Below are positions 1,176 to 13,043 of a stretch of DNA of 15,295 nucleotides, in pieces. The position numbers and the translations under genes were made by a program. The stretch's first letter is position 1. Each line of letters starts with the position of its first letter. Origin of the DNA: a virus (Duplodnaviria; Heunggongvirae; Uroviricota; Caudoviricetes); IMG/VR virus record IMGVR_UViG_2778261085_000006, positions 1 through 15,295 of that record; one strand, given 5' to 3'. The notes under the pieces were generated by a model that searched no databases, was not told the origin of the DNA, and was given only the letters and a program-made list of their open reading frames with translations.

Positions 1176-1997
1176 CTATCGCGTTACCTTCTTTAACTGC
1201 CACTCCGCCCATGCCTCTTCAATGTCAAACCGAACCACCAACGTATCGTAAAAGCGCTTCACTGATTTTTTCCACGTATCAAGTGTAATAGCACTCGTCA
1301 CTTTGCATATGGCATTAAATGCCTCCGTTGATGGCAGTCGTTCATAACCACGACCGCCACAACGTTGGCAGTCCCTGATAACAGGCATCCCCCGTTTTTC
1401 CGACTCTTCACGATAAATGGCAACACCACGCCCACGGCAATCTTTACAGGCAGTGGAAATCTCCCCCTTCCCTTTACATTCAGGACAGGAAACTTTCACC
1501 ACCTCCCGGATTTTTTTCCATTCTTCCCAGTAAGACGGATACACACCTTTCGTACACTTTGCCCATACTGGCGGCTTGCCATCCGGATACTGAACCTTGC
1601 TTGTAAAAACTTCGCTTTCAATAAATTTTTCCCCATGGCAACAGGGGCACTGCTTTTTACTCGCAGCACTACGGGCATAATCCTCAAAAGCATACGAAGC
1701 CATAATGCGCATCACTGCCGGTTTTATTTCTGCCGGAAGTTTTCTTAACGCCGCCACACTATCGCACTGACTTAATGCATAATCTGCCAGTAATTCTGTT
1801 GCCCGCACTCTGTCATTCATACTGATGCCCATTTTCCCCAGGAACGCAGAAAATCCCATCTCAGCCCGGTTCTGTGTCATGCCCTGTGCAGCCATCACAT
1901 CAGTGATACTCAGTGCATCTTTTGATGTCGAGGCGGATGCATCAGTCAGGCCTGGCGATTTCGGGGAATAGTATTTCGGTAAATCTTCCAGCTTCAT
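1176..1997 (-). CDS. Late-gene antitermination protein Q (zinc-ribbon rich Q family)
   Basis: 273-aa ORF with several CxxC pairs (CPCCHG, CPECKGKG, CKDCRGRG, CQRCGGRG); ATGA start/stop overlap with upstream rusA; followed by pR'/qut/tR' module. Confidence 0.8.
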   Translation of the reverse strand: MKLEDLPKYYSPKSPGLTDASASTSKDALSITDVMAAQGMTQNRAEMGFSAFLGKMGISMNDRVRATELLADYALSQCDSVAALRKLPAEIKPAVMRIMASYAFEDYARSAASKKQCPCCHGEKFIESEVFTSKVQYPDGKPPVWAKCTKGVYPSYWEEWKKIREVVKVSCPECKGKGEISTACKDCRGRGVAIYREESEKRGMPVIRDCQRCGGRGYERLPSTEAFNAICKVTSAITLDTWKKSVKRFYDTLVVRFDIEEAWAEWQLKKVTR

Positions 1998-3764: not shown

Positions 3765-3959
3765 TTAGTCTTCTTTAATACAGAAGTGGCTAACAGAATC
3801 CATGTGCGCTTCTTTACTGATCAAAATGGCATCAGGTGGTAGTGGTATTACAACAAAGTCGCCATTCTCAAAAGTTATCACTTCATAACTACCAGGAACA
3901 GAAAGCGTGGCAATTAATTCCTTATCGTTCATAACCAAAATCCCATGAACTTTAAACAC
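3765..3959 (-). CDS. Hypothetical small protein (about 55 aa if started at ATG 3932, 64 aa from GTG 3959)
   Basis: AT-rich small ORF between the hok terminator and the 90-aa ORF; start site ambiguous and SD weak. Confidence 0.3.
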   Translation of the reverse strand: MFKVHGILVMNDKELIATLSVPGSYEVITFENGDFVVIPLPPDAILISKEAHMDSVSHFCIKED

Positions 3960-4091
3960 ATCCCCTTAAGGGGGCCATCCCTCTTCTCCCTGCGCGCTAA
4001 CTAAGTAATATGATTCTATTTACCCCAAACGGCCCCTCAAGAACCGCACCCAATGGAGTACACAAAAAGCTAATCAACTACGCCGCACAAT

Positions 4092-4112
4092 AAAAAAACC
4101 CGCCGAAGCGGG
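4092..4112 (-). terminator. Rho-independent terminator downstream of hok
   Basis: Plus strand AAAAAAA-CCCGC-cgaa-GCGGG, i.e. on the minus strand a 5-bp GC stem followed by a U7 run. Confidence 0.7.
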
Positions 4113-4186
4113 TTAAGTGCGGGTGCGTTGAGGATGCCTGACACATCATAGGTGGCGGGGGATAAAAATCCCCCGCCAGGTCACCC

Positions 4187-4342
4187 TTACTCCTCAGATT
4201 CGTAAGCTGTGAAGACAGTGACCTCCGTCTGGCCGGTTCGGATTCGTACCTCGCAGAGGTCTTTCCTCGTTACCAGTGCCGTCACTATGACGGTTAAACA
4301 GATGACGATCAGGGCGATTAACATCGCCTTTTGCTGCTTCAT
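4187..4342 (-). CDS. hokD: Hok/Gef-family type I toxin (HokD/RelF-like small membrane toxin)
   Basis: 51 aa MKQQKAMLIALIVICLTVIVTALVTRKDLCEVRIRTGQTEVTVFTAYESEE, near-identical to HokD/RelF as recalled; AAGGAG SD 9 nt upstream; perfect 9-bp hairpin 10 nt after the stop. Confidence 0.9.
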   Translation of the reverse strand: MKQQKAMLIALIVICLTVIVTALVTRKDLCEVRIRTGQTEVTVFTAYESEE

Positions 4343-4680
4343 AGCCAGCTTCTCCTTGCCTTTCGGCACGTAAGAGGCTAACCTACATGTGTAAAGCATG
4401 AAATTGGCCTCAGATTAATGTTAAGCGTCTTGCCGGACGCGTAATGTTAACTGGGGCTTTTCTCTGTCTGCCTTACAGTGGCATGCCCGAGGCAGACAGC
4501 CTCAAGCACCCGCAACAATCTTACCGACACCGATAAGAAAACGCTATTTTTTATTGCCAGAACCTTCTGCCCAGGCTAATGTATCCGCGTCAGAACGGCG
4601 CAATGCGCTCGCCTGAGATACGTTTACTTGTCATTGGTGGCAACAGATAACGGCAATTGTTATTTCTGTTTGTTTCCTTC

Positions 4681-7136: not shown

Positions 7137-8246
7137 TTACCCCCTGAATCCCGGCGGAATTTCGGTGTCCGGTTCAGAAATGTGATTCACACAACGCTGG
7201 TTGTTCGTGCCGCTTACCGGAATCAACCAGGGGTTTTCAAAATTCCGGTCCGGTCCAAAAAACGTCGTCGCTCGCTGAACAAATTCCGTTCCCGTTTTCC
7301 CGGTAGCCGCCAGGTATCTTGCATAACGCCTCACACCATCCATCATGGCCTCTGGTGGCACCCCCTCGCGTAATCTGGCCTTCCAGGCACTGAATGCGGA
7401 TTTCTTCGGGTTTGCCCCGGCACGCAACGGGTATTCCCGCCAGACCTGTTCGAACACATCCGGATAATCCACCCGTCCCACAGGCTGCCCGGTGTTTTCC
7501 GGGACTACCCGATCGGCTTCCCGCTGAATGGCGGAATCGGCTTCAGGCTGCTGCAGTTGGTGTGATTGTTCCGGCCTTGCGGTCATCGCCTGCTGCACAG
7601 CTCCCGAATCGGCTTTCAGCGCATACGCTGAATCGGCTTCCGGTGTCGTGCCTGCTGGCTGACCAGAATTTACGGTCTGAACATCCCCTGCCTGGTTCAT
7701 GGTGTTTTTTTCGCCATGAACCATAGTGTTTTTGTCCTGTTCCTGTTCTTTCTCCTGCTCCTGTTCTTGGCTTCGAAGCCCCTTAAAAGCCCCTTCGAAG
7801 CCCCTTACAGAATTTCGGCTATTATTCCGCCTCACATCCAGATGGAAATCCGTTTTATATCTGTCGTAAAACGCTGACAGAAAAGCGTTTTCAGGTAATG
7901 ATGCATACTCATTCCTGACACCTGCACAACGGTTATCGCCAGGCTTCAACGTTTCCCCAACCTGCCAGGCTGCCATTTCATGGACCCAGACCATCTCTGC
8001 ATCATGGTCATAGCTACAAAAACCAGCTTCAACAGCCCTTTTAAGCCCCTTTGAAGCCCCTTCCAGACCAAGCCCGGTTTCATGAGCAAGGTATAAAACT
8101 GGCAGGTAATACAAACCCAGCATATTTGCGTGAGGGGATGTCATCAGGTAAAAAGCAACAACTTGCGCTTCTGCACCCGCCTTTCTAAGTTCTCTCCCCG
8201 TTTCTCCCAGCCAGAATCGCGGAGAAACTTTTGCGTAATCACGCAT
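7137..8246 (-). CDS. Phage replication initiator (O-like) with internal repeat/linker region
   Basis: 370 aa from ATG 8246 (GAGGT SD); immediately upstream of the DnaC-like gene; central low-complexity QEQEQEKEQEQ plus PEADSA repeats; C-terminal YPDVFEQVWREYP...AWKARLREGV resembles phage replication-protein C-terminal domains. Confidence 0.7.
   Translation of the reverse strand: MRDYAKVSPRFWLGETGRELRKAGAEAQVVAFYLMTSPHANMLGLYYLPVLYLAHETGLGLEGASKGLKRAVEAGFCSYDHDAEMVWVHEMAAWQVGETLKPGDNRCAGVRNEYASLPENAFLSAFYDRYKTDFHLDVRRNNSRNSVRGFEGAFKGLRSQEQEQEKEQEQDKNTMVHGEKNTMNQAGDVQTVNSGQPAGTTPEADSAYALKADSGAVQQAMTARPEQSHQLQQPEADSAIQREADRVVPENTGQPVGRVDYPDVFEQVWREYPLRAGANPKKSAFSAWKARLREGVPPEAMMDGVRRYARYLAATGKTGTEFVQRATTFFGPDRNFENPWLIPVSGTNNQRCVNHISEPDTEIPPGFRG
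7511..7639. repeat. Four iteron-like copies of GAATCGGCTT inside the O-like gene (candidate origin-binding sites)
   Basis: Copies begin near 7511, 7534, 7606 and 7630 (spacing about 23, 72, 24 bp); followed by a T-rich tract at 7695..7770. Confidence 0.55.
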
Positions 8247-8324
8247 GGCTACCTCATCTGGTGCCGAAGCTTCCTCCGGATATAATCTGTGGTTCCCAAT
8301 CGACAGAACCAGAGGAGGTTCGAC

Positions 8325-8780
8325 ATGTATTTTTTGAAAAGCCTTTATCAGGCTCATGTATTAAATGTTGCAGCAACAAACCGCTGGTGTAACAGCCCCG
8401 AAATGCTCCCGGATTACAGAGCCTGGCTGCGCGCAGAAACATACCTTCGTCTCGACATATTGATTAGCGAACTTCAAAAAGAGACTGCATCCATTCATAA
8501 CCTTCAGGGTATCGACGCTGTTCGCATTCTGGTATCGCGCCATAGTGCTCTCTCAATAATTGAAGTGCGTCATCTCTCTTTTTCTGAACTGATTTTCTTG
8601 CTTCAACCAGCTCTGGAATCAGCGAATATCCCACCGGAAGTGATCCAATACCCACCTCATGTTGACGAGCAGTTACAAGATGTGCCATACAACCAGCGTG
8701 CTGGATTGACTCCCTGCTCAGAGGCTGAATGGGATCACTCTCTGCTGAAGAAATACCAAGATTTGTATAATCCTCAATAA
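8325..8780 (+). CDS. Hypothetical antisense-oriented protein (151 aa) with near-consensus SD
   Basis: GAGGAGGT at 8312..8319, 5-nt spacer, ATG at 8325; overlaps the minus-strand ORF 8464..8973 by 317 nt, so at most one is likely fully real. Confidence 0.3.
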   Translation: MYFLKSLYQAHVLNVAATNRWCNSPEMLPDYRAWLRAETYLRLDILISELQKETASIHNLQGIDAVRILVSRHSALSIIEVRHLSFSELIFLLQPALESANIPPEVIQYPPHVDEQLQDVPYNQRAGLTPCSEAEWDHSLLKKYQDLYNPQ

Positions 8781-9774: not shown

Positions 9775-10164
9775 ATGGACATGAGAAAAAAGCAATACGA
9801 CACCCCGCTAGCAGAAAGGTTAGATACGATCTCGCAACAGCATCATTTAAGTGGTTCAGATTTAGCGCGTATCGCTGGTGTAGGTCGTTCATCAGTCAAC
9901 GCATGGAAAAAAAGAGGAACAATCAGTAAAGATTCCGCAGCCAAAATTGCGGAAGCTACAAACGTTTCCCTTTCTTGGCTACTGACAGGAAAAGAAGAGA
10001 CAAATAGAGAGGCACTTGATGATGACGAGAAGGCCCTGCTTGATGTTTACAGAAGCCTGCCACCTGTAGAACGTAGAAATATGCTGGCAGCTTTTCAAAT
10101 GCGACTTCAAAAACTGACCGAATTTTACTCAGAATACGTCGACCCAATAACAAGACAAAAATAA
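9775..10164 (+). CDS. DicA-like XRE-family HTH repressor (short CI analogue without peptidase domain)
   Basis: 129 aa; N-terminal HTH (SGSDLARIAGVGRSSVNAWKKRG); C-terminal ALLDVYRSLPPVERRNMLAAF resembles the DicA C-terminal region; divergent to the Cro-like gene. Confidence 0.8.
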   Translation: MDMRKKQYDTPLAERLDTISQQHHLSGSDLARIAGVGRSSVNAWKKRGTISKDSAAKIAEATNVSLSWLLTGKEETNREALDDDEKALLDVYRSLPPVERRNMLAAFQMRLQKLTEFYSEYVDPITRQK

Positions 10165-11669: not shown

Positions 11670-11735
11670 ACCCATGTTGATTACCTTTTGGCGGGTATCC
11701 GTTTTTTGTTTTCCCTTGTGATACCCGCCCTTTTT
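11670..11735 (+). ncRNA. DicF-like small RNA candidate (processed sRNA ending in an intrinsic terminator)
   Basis: 10-bp perfect stem GGCGGGTATC / GATACCCGCC with a U-rich 20-nt loop, followed by CTTTTT; 5' flank UUUUGGCGGGUAUC resembles DicF UUUGGCGGUAUC as recalled; sits in a non-coding stretch of the DicA-repressed operon. Confidence 0.4.
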
Positions 11736-12001
11736 AAAGTGAATTTTGTGATGCGGTGAATGCGGCTAAGCGCACGCGGAACAGTTAAAAAGGACAGTTG
11801 ACATTCGTATTGGTTCTTATGGGTGGGTTATCTGTATCCGGCGTTAATTGTTAACTGGTTAACGTCACCTGGAGGCACCAGGCATCGCATCAACAAAATT
11901 CACTTCAGTGATGAAAGGTGAGAGAAAATGTTGAATGTAGCTATTGAAAACCAGAACGGGTGGAATTATAGTGCACCTGCACCTCATAAAACGGGTGCCG
12001 G

Positions 12002-12212
12002 GATTTGCACCCCGATGATCACTAGAGCGCATAACCGCGCCAAAGCGGTTTTTTTATGCGTAAAGCGCAGCCACATTCAGATTATGGTGGGGCGTATGGG
12101 GCCGTTTTCGGGCGGGCCGGATTCTCTAGTGACCGGTAGTGCAAACCCTGTACGTCTCACCACCCATGAGATTTGCACCTACGGTGGTGAGTTTACCAAC
12201 TTATCACTAGAG
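12002..12212. repeat. Three copies of a bipartite motif TTTGCAC-N-TCACTAGAG (direct, inverted, direct) upstream of the Rha gene
   Basis: Copy 1 at 12004..12027, inverted copy CTCTAGTGA...GTGCAAA at 12124..12146, copy 3 at 12172..12212 with a longer internal spacer. Confidence 0.5.
12034..12055 (+). terminator. Possible intrinsic terminator/attenuator in the Rha leader
   Basis: ACCGC-gccaaa-GCGGT followed by T7; stem is only 5 bp. Confidence 0.4.
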
Positions 12213-12221
12213 GCTGCCATC

Positions 12222-12776
12222 ATGGCTACTATCCCTACCCTGTCTCACCCTGACGTAACCATCGAAAACGGTCGCGCTATCACTACGTCTGTTGCGATCG
12301 CAGAGTTCTTTGGCAAACGACACGACAACGTGTTACGTGCCATCGCAAACATTGAATGCTCAGAAAAATTTAACGCCCTCAATTTTGAGGACGTAACGTA
12401 CACCGACGCCAAAGGCGAAAAACGTCCAATGTACCAAATCACCAAAAACGGCTTCGTTTTCCTGGTGATGGGCTTCACTGGCAAAAAAGCCGCTGCATTC
12501 AAAGAGGCCTACATTGCTGAGTTCGACCGCATGGAGGCAGAGCTGCGTCAGAATAACACCCCACCAACTGACAAAATAATTCCTGGCGATGGTCGCACTC
12601 TGGTTGTTCGATTCGACGAACACGGCAATATCAAATTCACCGAAACCGTTCCTGATGGTGCAATGGTCTGTACTCTGGATACCTTCCAGTTTTATCTGGA
12701 GAAACAGGGATGGACACTTGTAAACCGGAGCGCAATTAGAAACATGACTGTCGAACAATTGCTGCGTATTAAATAG
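12222..12776 (+). CDS. Rha-family phage regulatory protein (antirepressor-like)
   Basis: N-terminal AIAEFFGKRHDNVLRAIANIECSEKFNALNFE...MYQITKNGFVFLVMGFTGKKAAAFKEAYIAEFDRME matches the Rha N-terminal domain; the in-frame extension back to 11928 contains a terminator and repeats, so was not taken as coding. Confidence 0.75.
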   Translation: MATIPTLSHPDVTIENGRAITTSVAIAEFFGKRHDNVLRAIANIECSEKFNALNFEDVTYTDAKGEKRPMYQITKNGFVFLVMGFTGKKAAAFKEAYIAEFDRMEAELRQNNTPPTDKIIPGDGRTLVVRFDEHGNIKFTETVPDGAMVCTLDTFQFYLEKQGWTLVNRSAIRNMTVEQLLRIK

Positions 12777-12821
12777 TTTTCTGGAATTTACTTCATATGA
12801 CTAATTATTATGGAGATAATT

Positions 12822-13043
12822 ATGATTGCTCATCACTTCGGAACTGATGAAATACCACGTCAGTGTGTGACTCCAGGCGATTATGTTCTTCATGAGGGCA
12901 GGACATATATTGCATCGGCAAACAATATTAAAAAGCGAAAACTTTATATTCGTAGCCTGACCACAAAAACATGCATAACTGGCTGCATGGTTAAAGTTTT
13001 CCTCGGTCGTGATGGATTACCTGTAAAGGCTGAGTCATGGTGA
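12822..13043 (+). CDS. Small 73-aa protein at the position and size of Rac KilR (identity unverified)
   Basis: GGAG SD 6 nt before ATG at 12822; lies between the Rha and RecE-like genes. Confidence 0.5.

What the first reader, a model, noticed from the sequence alone, without database searches (positions are those of the whole stretch)
11928..12221. Direct-inverted-direct repeat array and putative attenuator in the leader of the Rha regulator gene
The bipartite motif TTTGCAC-N-TCACTAGAG occurs three times (direct about 12004..12027, inverted about 12124..12146, direct about 12172..12212), with a candidate intrinsic terminator (12034..12055) between copy 1 and the inverted copy. The inverted copy could pair with either direct copy in the RNA, giving alternative terminator/antiterminator folds, or the repeats could be protein operators. 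The in-frame ORF extension over this region (from ATG 11928, with an AGGTGAG SD) is probably not coding.
Basis: seen in the sequence. Interest (0 to 1): 0.45.

Follow-up and report, generated by a model that had tools for sequence, protein, structure and literature searches.

The report
IsrK–C4 antisense RNA cassette before rha
The three repeat copies are the matching recognition boxes of a well-known phage antisense-RNA switch (the P1/P7 c4, P4 CI and Salmonella Gifsy-1 IsrK type) that keeps a prophage regulator gene switched off, so the finding is real but ordinary.

Summary
TCACTAGAG occurs three times in 15.3 kb, where 0.07 is expected by chance.

It is a known regulatory cassette. It also places a C4 antisense RNA at 12080-12167, which carries the inverted copy in exposed positions. 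Direct copy 2 lies in the rha leader, and its 3' box overlaps the Shine-Dalgarno sequence (GAGG 12210-12213; ATG 12222).

Across 26 distinct related loci there are 8 a-box and 14 b-box variants. All three copies change together. The a-boxes are 182/182 Watson-Crick paired with each target. Departures in the b-boxes are mostly G·U, which points to RNA-RNA pairing rather than protein operators.

The same layout occurs in a P1-like phage, in P4 and in Gifsy-1, and one GenBank Stx-phage record already annotates both RNAs.

The ORF extension from 11928 starts upstream of the internal promoter and shows no codon-position bias. It matches Pfam "Ash", which appears to be a translation of this RNA cassette.

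Verdict: already known, low interest.

The parts
11944..11972 (+). Sigma-70-type promoter of the cassette (TTGAAA, 17 nt spacer, TATAGT). The predicted start is about 11979.
   Evidence: Promoter scan, 10 of 12 matches. Hexamers sit in the same alignment columns in loci whose upstream sequence is otherwise unrelated: TL-2011c, L017, L039 and Gifsy-1. Position 1 of the isrK model falls 7 nt after the -10 hexamer.
11979..12055 (+). isrK-family small RNA. It has two 5' hairpins, with the a1 box in the loop of the second, a single-stranded b1 box, and an intrinsic terminator.
   Evidence: Rfam RF01394, 68.6 bits against a gathering score of 50. Fold z-score -2.3. Stems covary.
12004..12010 (+). 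a1 box (TTTGCAC), target copy 1.
   Evidence: 7 pairs with a', 6 of them covarying, 100% paired.
12019..12027 (+). b1 box (TCACTAGAG), target copy 1.
   Evidence: 9 pairs with b', 8 of them covarying.
12033..12055 (+). Intrinsic terminator of the isrK-family RNA. Read-through is needed to make C4 and the rha mRNA.
   Evidence: Terminator scan; positions 56-77 of the Rfam isrK model.
12080..12167 (+). C4-family antisense RNA. It has a long basal stem and two internal hairpins; its 3' end reads CACCACCC.
   Evidence: Rfam RF01695, 78.1 bits against a gathering score of 45. Fold z-score -3.1 on the + strand and +0.2 on the - strand. 9 of 17 basal-stem pairs and 4 of 5 hairpin-1 pairs covary.
12124..12132 (+). 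b' box (CTCTAGTGA), in the loop of C4 hairpin 2. It is complementary to b1 and b2.
12139..12145 (+). a' box (GTGCAAA), in the single-stranded linker of C4. It is complementary to a1 and a2.
12156..12191 (+). Alternative hairpin. The 3' strand of the C4 basal stem (CTCACCACC, 12156-12164) can pair with GGTGGTGAG (12183-12191), placing a2 in the loop. This excludes the C4 fold.
   Evidence: pair I17; 96.5% paired across 19 sequences, 4 pairs with changes on both sides.
12172..12178 (+). a2 box (TTTGCAC), target copy 2, in the rha leader.
   Evidence: 182/182 Watson-Crick cells with a'.
12204..12213 (+). b2 box (TCACTAGAG, 12204-12212), overlapping the rha Shine-Dalgarno sequence GAGG (12210-12213).
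   Evidence: In every related locus b2 abuts or overlaps the GAGG.
12084..12221 (+). Open frame resembling Gifsy-1 orf45, with ATGs at 12084 and 12096 inside the 5' strand of the C4 basal stem. Here it runs in frame into rha with no stop.
   Evidence: The same two ATGs occur in Gifsy-1, where the 45-codon ORF ends in a TGA that overlaps the anrP ATG. Translation of orf45 and its coupling to anrP were shown experimentally (PMC4825925). In this window the fusion is read directly from the sequence.
12222..12776 (+). rha: a Rha-family regulator whose N-terminal domain resembles antirepressors. This is the gene the cassette controls.
   Evidence: Pfam Phage_pRha, E = 7.8e-33. PHROG 995, 518, 373 and 63, described as Rha-like or anti-repressor. 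The TL-2011c and F039 records annotate this short start.
11928..12221 (+). Conceptual ORF extension (98 codons), matched by Pfam Phage_ASH. Most likely not a protein domain.
   Evidence: details in the full report.

Best explanation
The direct-inverted-direct array is the recognition code of an immI-type antisense-RNA cassette, as in P1/P7 c4-icd-ant, P4 seqA-CI-seqC and Gifsy-1 isrK-STnc1160/orf45-anrP.

Proposed sequence of events:
1. A promoter at 11944-11972 starts transcription near 11979.
2. Most transcripts stop at the terminator (12033-12055). This gives an isrK-family small RNA that displays boxes a1 and b1.
3. Read-through transcripts contain the C4 RNA (12080-12167), which displays the complementary boxes b' (in a hairpin loop) and a' (in a linker). 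They also contain the rha leader with boxes a2 and b2.
4. C4 is probably cut out of the precursor, as in P1 and P4. It pairs with a2 and b2. Because b2 overlaps the Shine-Dalgarno sequence, ribosomes cannot start on rha. By polarity, the downstream kil gene would also stay silent.
5. The isrK-family RNA carries the same boxes as the leader, so it competes for C4. The ratio of terminated to read-through transcripts therefore sets whether rha is translated.

Shown here: the family membership of both RNAs, their structures, the three-way complementarity and its covariation, and the overlap with the ribosome binding site.

Inferred by homology: processing of C4, the direction of regulation, and the antirepressor role of Rha.
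For: - Rfam isrK (68.6 bits, gathering score 50) and C4 (78.1 bits, gathering score 45) at gathering thresholds.
- Both RNAs are found in tandem in front of rha in 17 of 19 related rha loci scanned. They are also in tandem in a P1-like phage, in Gifsy-1 and in P4.
- Over 26 distinct loci there are 8 a-types and 14 b-types in 18 combinations. a'·a1 and a'·a2 are each 182/182 Watson-Crick. Non-Watson-Crick cells in b are 25 G·U against 6 A·C.
- On the tool-made alignment, a1·a' has 6 of 7 pairs covarying and b1·b' has 8 of 9. The whole structure is 95.8% paired against 83.6% in shuffles (0 of 500 reach it) and 36-45% when the partners are slid.
- Cognate duplex energies are -31.3 and -28.0 kcal/mol, against -18.3 and -18.5 for non-cognate pairs.
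- The C4 fold is strand-specific.
- b2 abuts or overlaps the GAGG in every locus.
- The leader aligns end to end with the P1-like immI leader, including the first ten codons (MATIPTLSHPD against Icd MATVPTPTHPE).
- Experimental precedent: IsrK pairs with the STnc1160/orf45 region and switches anrP translation (PMC4825925). C4 RNA and Icd regulate Ant in P1 (PMC8201110). The C4 precursor is an RNase P substrate (title of Hartmann 1995, cited in PMC11143913).
Against: - There are no expression data for this locus, so the transcription start, read-through, processing and direction of regulation are all inferred.
- In Gifsy-1 the published mechanism is activation by trans IsrK of a self-silenced mRNA through a translated uORF. 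There, constitutive STnc1160 did not relieve toxicity. So "C4 is simply a repressor" may be too simple.
- The leader alone is predicted to hide its SD and AUG without C4 (z = -4.39).
- Rha is not similar to AnrP or to P1 Ant. Its antirepressor role rests only on domain-level PHROG and Pfam hits.
Confidence: 0.8

Rival explanations
1. P4-style control. C4 acts mainly by pairing with a1/b1 and a2/b2 on nascent RNA and causing premature transcription termination, at the 12033-12055 terminator or at Rho-dependent sites downstream. On this view the block of ribosome binding is secondary.
For: P4 carries the same isrK plus C4 pair, and its CI RNA is reported to cause termination by pairing with seqA and seqC (PMC4825925 discussion). 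b1 ends only 5 nt before the terminator stem.
Against: b2 overlaps the SD in every locus, which argues that translation is the primary target. The two modes do not exclude each other: in P1, from my own knowledge of Biere et al. 1992, translational block leads to Rho-dependent termination.
Confidence: 0.12
2. A purely cis-acting attenuator. On this view alternative folds of one transcript decide termination or translation, with no diffusible RNA.
For: In Gifsy-1 the read-through RNA does form an intramolecular a1·a' helix ("structure A") that is translationally silent. A conserved alternative hairpin, 12156-12164 with 12183-12191, competes with the C4 stem.
Against: Trans action is documented for c4 (P1/P7), CI (P4) and IsrK (Gifsy-1). 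Cassettes that share one genome differ in at least one box in 5 of 5 cases, which is expected only if cross-talk in trans matters.
Confidence: 0.05
3. The repeats are DNA operators for a protein, or they reflect a real Ash protein domain fused to Rha and translated from ATG 11928.
For: Frame 0 is open for about 294 nt upstream of the rha ATG in most Rac-type loci and in Citrobacter, with 0 stops against 5-8 in the other frames. Pfam Phage_ASH matches it. PGAP annotates the 282-aa ORF.
Against: - G·U departures outnumber A·C 25 to 6, and the C4 fold is strand-specific.
- There is no third-codon-position excess in the leader: 23/23/22 polymorphic sites in C4, against 44/34/85 in rha.
- A promoter and a T-run terminator lie inside the supposed domain.
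- The frame is closed in TL-2011c, L039, L080 and L030.
- Phage_ASH also matches the frame over P4 CI RNA and over P1-like c4, both known to act as RNAs. P4 epsilon itself matches a different family.
Confidence: 0.03

Closest known systems
Phage P1/P7 immI operon (a1b1 - c4 - a2b2 - icd - ant)
   Same: Same order of parts and the same two Rfam RNAs, seen in the P1-like phage RCS47: isrK 2347-2425 and C4 2470-2557. The a/b code is bipartite in the same way, and b2 sits on the SD. The homology even extends into the first ~10 codons of the downstream gene.
   Different: Here the first gene is rha itself, not the 73-codon icd followed by ant. Rha is unrelated to P1 Ant. The box sequences differ. 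The frame that starts in C4 ends before b2 in the P1-like phage but runs into rha here.
Salmonella Gifsy-1 isrK - STnc1160/orf45 - anrP locus (Hershko-Shalev et al. 2016, PMC4825925)
   Same: The promoter, the IsrK RNA with its terminator, the C4-family RNA (STnc1160), the same two ATGs in the 5' strand of C4, and a2/b2 in front of a prophage regulator gene.
   Different: In Gifsy-1, orf45 stops at a TGA that overlaps the anrP ATG. In this window the equivalent frame is fused in frame to rha. AnrP and Rha are not similar. The cassette lies in the early-left region next to a kil gene rather than beside the Q antiterminator.
Satellite phage P4 immunity (seqA - CI RNA/seqB - seqC)
   Same: isrK-family and C4-family RNAs in the same order. 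The logic is direct-inverted-direct. A historical ORF over the RNA matches Pfam Phage_ASH, like the extension here.
   Different: P4 has a longer spacer (about 108 nt) between the two RNAs. Its reported output is premature termination of the replication operon, not control of a Rha gene.
Rfam c4-a1b1 motif (RF03163; Weinberg et al. 2010, PMC2864571)
   Same: It describes the upstream a1/b1 target element of C4 RNAs in gamma-proteobacteria and phages. It hits Gifsy-1 and L090 above threshold.
   Different: In this window it scores only 18.8 bits against a gathering score of 46.7. The isrK model describes the same stretch better.

Membership tests
C4 antisense RNA (Rfam RF01695; P1/P7 c4, P4 CI) | Covariance-model score at or above the curated gathering score. 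| tested here: met
   78.1 bits against 45, full length 1-87.
C4 antisense RNA (Rfam RF01695; P1/P7 c4, P4 CI) | Basal stem plus two hairpins, supported by compensatory changes, and folding on the transcribed strand only. | tested here: met
   Helices 6-8 are 99-100% paired, with 9, 4 and 1 covarying pairs. Fold z-score is -3.1 on the + strand and +0.2 on the - strand.
C4 antisense RNA (Rfam RF01695; P1/P7 c4, P4 CI) | Two exposed antisense boxes (a', b') complementary to a downstream target (a2, b2) that covers the ribosome binding site of the next gene. | tested here: met
   b' lies in a loop and a' in a linker. a'·a2 is 182/182 Watson-Crick. b'·b2 is 215 Watson-Crick, 13 G·U and 2 other. 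b2 overlaps GAGG 12210-12213.
C4 antisense RNA (Rfam RF01695; P1/P7 c4, P4 CI) | A second, upstream target copy (a1, b1) on the same transcript. | tested here: met
   a1 12004-12010 and b1 12019-12027; 14 of 16 pairs covary.
C4 antisense RNA (Rfam RF01695; P1/P7 c4, P4 CI) | Release from a precursor by RNase P, and action in trans as a repressor. | not testable with these tools
   Only the CACCACCC 3' end is visible. Processing is known from P1/P7 (title of Hartmann 1995, cited).
isrK small RNA (Rfam RF01394) | Covariance-model score at or above the gathering score, with its own promoter and an intrinsic terminator. | tested here: met
   68.6 bits against 50. Promoter 11944-11972 and terminator 12033-12055.
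isrK small RNA (Rfam RF01394) | Hfq binding, and activation in trans of the read-through mRNA. | not testable with these tools
   Known only from Gifsy-1 experiments.
Gifsy-1-type uORF coupling (orf45 - anrP) | A short ORF that starts in the 5' strand of C4 and stops at or over the start codon of the downstream gene. | tested here: not met
   The ATGs at 12084 and 12096 are conserved, but the frame has no stop and runs into rha. In Gifsy-1 the TGA overlaps the anrP ATG.
Antirepressor cargo (P1 Ant, Gifsy-1 AnrP) | The downstream protein is homologous to a characterised antirepressor. | tested here: inconclusive
   No similarity to AnrP (E = 0.076) or to P1-like Ant (E = 6). The N-terminal Phage_pRha domain does match PHROGs named anti-repressor, 373 and 63.
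Pfam Phage_ASH (PF10554), taken as a protein domain | Evidence of protein-level selection on the matched stretch. | tested here: not met
   The HMM matches at 51.8 bits. There is no third-position excess. A promoter and terminator lie inside the match. The same HMM matches the frames over P4 CI and P1-like c4 RNAs.

The most novel reading that the evidence does not exclude
The C4 gene may double as coding sequence in this lineage. The orf45-like frame (ATG 12084 or 12096) is fused in frame to rha and stays open across all 8 x 14 box variants examined. Ribosomes that start inside the C4 stem would then make an N-terminally extended Rha isoform, about 42-46 extra residues (the "Ash" part). That would make the cassette a dual RNA/protein element with two Rha isoforms. 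In addition, the freely recombining a and b boxes could form a two-key code that lets several prophages in one cell keep their regulators independent.
Probability: 0.2. Interest if true: 0.45.

Novelty: already known. Interest (0 to 1): 0.22.

Why it matters
The finding mainly gives a correct annotation. The rha gene of this Rac-like prophage is gated by an IsrK/C4 antisense-RNA cassette, and the specificity of that cassette is written in two short boxes.

Two practical consequences follow.
- The 282-aa "Rha/Ash" proteins annotated by PGAP and discussed in the Stx-phage literature probably contain a mistranslated RNA cassette. The true start is 12222.
- The box types predict which co-resident prophages could cross-regulate each other's regulators.

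Neither point changes the established picture of c4-type immunity.

Tried and rejected
- Duplex folding of the whole RNAs gave inflated, uninformative energies. I replaced it with the exposed segments only.
- Counting b'·b2 at fixed alignment columns failed, with 47% paired. The b2 box sits 2 nt further upstream in most box types; sliding by -2 raises the covariation score to 0.346. I used per-locus scanning instead.
- a2 could not be counted on the alignment because of a 3-nt indel.
- The genome-contig scan gave only 8 loci, so diversity came mainly from viral contigs.
- Rha was compared with AnrP and with P1-like Ant. There was no similarity, so the cargo is not conserved.
- The P1 genome paper is not held. 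P1 details therefore rest on PMC8201110, on reference titles and on my own knowledge.
- The open reading frame as evidence of coding was considered and rejected. Most of its openness is inherited. The 11 b' variants give only about 33 variable codons, for which no stop is expected about 20% of the time by my own estimate.
- AlphaFold and the large protein searches were not run. They could not change the verdict.

Full report
**Observation**

- a1 TTTGCAC is at 12004-12010 and b1 TCACTAGAG at 12019-12027.
- The inverted copy is b' CTCTAGTGA at 12124-12132 and a' GTGCAAA at 12139-12145.
- The second direct copy is a2 at 12172-12178 and b2 at 12204-12212.

The 9-mer occurs three times in the 15.3-kb window, all in this region, against 0.07 expected; 0 of 200 shuffles reach 3. 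The 7-mer alone is unremarkable, with 6 matches against 3.8 expected.

The terminator is real: a stem at 12033-12050 followed by a T-run. ATG 11928, with AGGTGAG at 11916-11922, opens a 282-codon ORF that runs to 12776.

**What it is**

An Rfam scan at curated thresholds finds two RNA genes here.
- An isrK-family small RNA at 11979-12055 (68.6 bits, gathering score 50).
- A C4 antisense RNA at 12080-12167 (78.1 bits, gathering score 45). Here b' fills the loop of the second hairpin, and a' lies in the linker before the basal stem closes.

A good sigma-70-type promoter (TTGAAA, 17 nt spacer, TATAGT; 11944-11972) ends 7 nt before position 1 of the isrK model. Loci whose upstream sequence is unrelated keep hexamers in the same alignment columns.

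C4 folds significantly better than shuffles on the + strand (z = -3.1) but not on the - strand (z = +0.2).

The second direct copy lies in the leader of rha. b2 overlaps the Shine-Dalgarno sequence GAGG (12210-12213) by 3 nt, 8 nt before ATG 12222.

**Comparative evidence**

I collected 88 loci encoding relatives of the Rha protein. One of them, L003, encodes an identical Rha protein and has an identical leader, so it is probably the source of the window.

The leaders fall into 26 distinct versions, with 8 a-box types and 14 b-box types in 18 combinations. In every version all three copies change together.
- a'·a1 and a'·a2 are each 182/182 Watson-Crick.
- b'·b1 is 202 Watson-Crick, 12 G·U, 6 A·C and 10 other. 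The A·C and "other" cells come from a one-base bulge register.
- b'·b2 is 215 Watson-Crick, 13 G·U, 0 A·C and 2 other.

On a tool-made alignment of 19 leaders that includes a P1-like phage and Gifsy-1, covariation is strong.
- 6 of 7 a1·a' pairs and 8 of 9 b1·b' pairs carry changes on both sides.
- The whole structure is 95.8% paired, against 83.6% in shuffles (0 of 500 reach it) and 36-45% when the partners are slid.

Cognate duplexes are about 10-13 kcal/mol more stable than non-cognate ones.

The excess of G·U over A·C departures and the strand-specific fold point to RNA-RNA pairing on the + strand, not to protein operators.

**Relation to known systems**

The same tandem of isrK plus C4 was found in four other settings.
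- In front of rha in 17 of 19 related rha loci scanned.
- In Gifsy-1, between antQ and anrP.
- In P4, over the CI RNA region.

A distant BLAST search finds the cassette in 212 phage records. In front of it sit genes annotated as Rha, Ant, antirepressor or "Ash family protein". One Stx-phage record (LC710660) already annotates both ncRNAs.

The window's leader aligns with the P1-like leader from the a1 hairpin through the first ten codons of the next gene (MATIPTLSHPD against Icd MATVPTPTHPE).

Published work covers the mechanism.
- The C4 precursor is an RNase P substrate (title of Hartmann 1995, cited).
- In P4, CI RNA pairs with seqA and seqC (PMC4825925 discussion).
- In Gifsy-1, the terminated IsrK RNA acts in trans on the read-through isrK-orf45-anrP mRNA. 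The a1 region (G28, G31) pairs with C162 and C159 in the STnc1160/orf45 region, and compensatory mutants confirm this.
- The a1/b1 element was also described as the c4-a1b1 motif (PMC2864571).

**Most likely mechanism**

This is inferred by homology; the anatomy was shown above.
1. The promoter fires, and most transcripts end as the isrK-family RNA.
2. Read-through produces C4 and the rha leader.
3. C4 pairs with a2 and b2 and masks the ribosome binding site of rha. The isrK-family RNA carries identical boxes and competes for C4.

Two further structural features are worth recording.
- The 3' strand of the C4 basal stem (12156-12164) can instead pair with 12183-12191, putting a2 in a loop. This helix is 96.5% paired, with four covarying pairs, so the precursor has genuine alternative folds.
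- The leader 12150-12225 folds on its own (z = -4.39) so that the CCU next to a2 pairs with the SD and 12164-12169 pairs with the AUG region. This fits the self-silenced mRNA reported for Gifsy-1.

Whether C4 mainly represses or is part of a more complex switch cannot be settled without experiments.

**The ORF extension**

PGAP annotates the long 282-aa form in E. coli. The TL-2011c and F039 records use the short start. The extension matches Pfam Phage_ASH (51.8 bits) and several PHROG profiles.

Four results argue against real coding.
- ATG 11928 lies upstream of the internal promoter, and the supposed domain contains a T-run terminator.
- Polymorphic sites show no third-codon-position excess in the leader (C4 23/23/22; isrK 21/20/14). 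The rha coding region gives 44/34/85.
- The frame is closed in TL-2011c, L039, L080 and L030.
- Phage_ASH also matches the historical "cI" ORF over P4 CI RNA (59.7 bits) and the frame over the P1-like c4 gene (28.3 bits). P4 epsilon, sometimes called Ash, belongs to a different family, PF25738.

The frame is nevertheless open in most loci, with 0 stops against 5-8 in the other frames. Its last 46 codons start at the same two ATGs as Gifsy-1 orf45, which was shown to be translated. In this window that frame has no stop and runs into rha. A leader-encoded N-terminal extension of Rha therefore cannot be excluded.

**Context**

The window is a lambdoid, Rac-like prophage segment.
- A Q antiterminator at 1176-1997 (-), DUF968, and hok/sok at 4340-4511.
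- DUF1627, and a cI-like repressor at 9775-10164 (+).
- Then the cassette, rha, and a Kil-family gene at 12810-13043.

The closest E. coli loci have the same order, followed by kilR-ydaE-recET-xis-int.

**Verdict**

It missed that these are two catalogued RNA genes of a classical phage immunity cassette.

The only local variations are the rha cargo, the in-frame fusion of the orf45-like frame, and this particular box combination (TTTGCAC with TCACTAGAG, seen in 13 of the collected loci).

Noticed in passing
window 11967-12251; L094 (P4) 8168-8584; L092 (P1-like) 2474-2590: Pfam PF10554 "Ash protein family" looks like a conceptual translation of the isrK/C4 RNA cassette. It matches the window's leader, the old P4 "cI" ORF over CI RNA, and the frame over a P1-like c4 gene. 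P4 epsilon itself is PF25738. Published papers treat Ash as a protein domain of unknown function fused to Rha (PMC8951638), or use PF10554 as the marker for P4 epsilon (PMC8628076).
   Followed up: partly
L007 1290-1500; L001 (TL-2011c) 3955-4150: An sRNA-Xcc1 family RNA (RF02221) sits where C4 sits, upstream of an orthologous rha in L007 and upstream of the gene after rha in TL-2011c. It follows the same direct-inverted-direct logic. In L007: CAGTTAAG at 1295, CTTAACTG at 1421, and CAGTTAAGGAGG at 1481 on the SD. In L001: CAAGTAG at 3960, CTACTTG at 4073, and CAAGTAGGA at 4128. The sRNA-Xcc1 papers I read do not describe it as a c4-like cis-encoded antisense repressor.
   Followed up: partly
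L083/L086, L084/L087, L016/L022, L004/L028, L008/L080: Cassettes that share one genome differ in at least one of the two boxes in 5 of 5 cases, consistent with selection against cross-talk. In E. coli complete genomes the query region (cassette plus rha, 11700-12800) has a median of 2 and up to 10 matching places per genome.
   Followed up: partly
L004 841-1029 and 1255-1443: Two complete isrK-C4 cassettes lie in tandem upstream of one rha gene. They share the a' box but have different b' boxes.
   Followed up: no
window 11737-11905: A 13-nt perfect inverted repeat (11737-11749 with 11893-11905) brackets a weak, sub-threshold match to STnc100 (31.8 bits against a gathering score of 47), just upstream of the cassette. 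In many related loci a DicF RNA occupies the equivalent place, but DicF is absent from this window.
   Followed up: no
window 4340-4511 (-): A hok/sok-type toxin-antitoxin RNA (Rfam sok, 115 bits) lies in the prophage early region.
   Followed up: no
window 12150-12225: The rha leader alone is predicted to fold (z = -4.39) so that the CCU next to a2 pairs with the Shine-Dalgarno sequence and 12164-12169 pairs with the AUG region. A CCU(C/U) motif follows a2 in most related loci, but not in Gifsy-1.
   Followed up: partly
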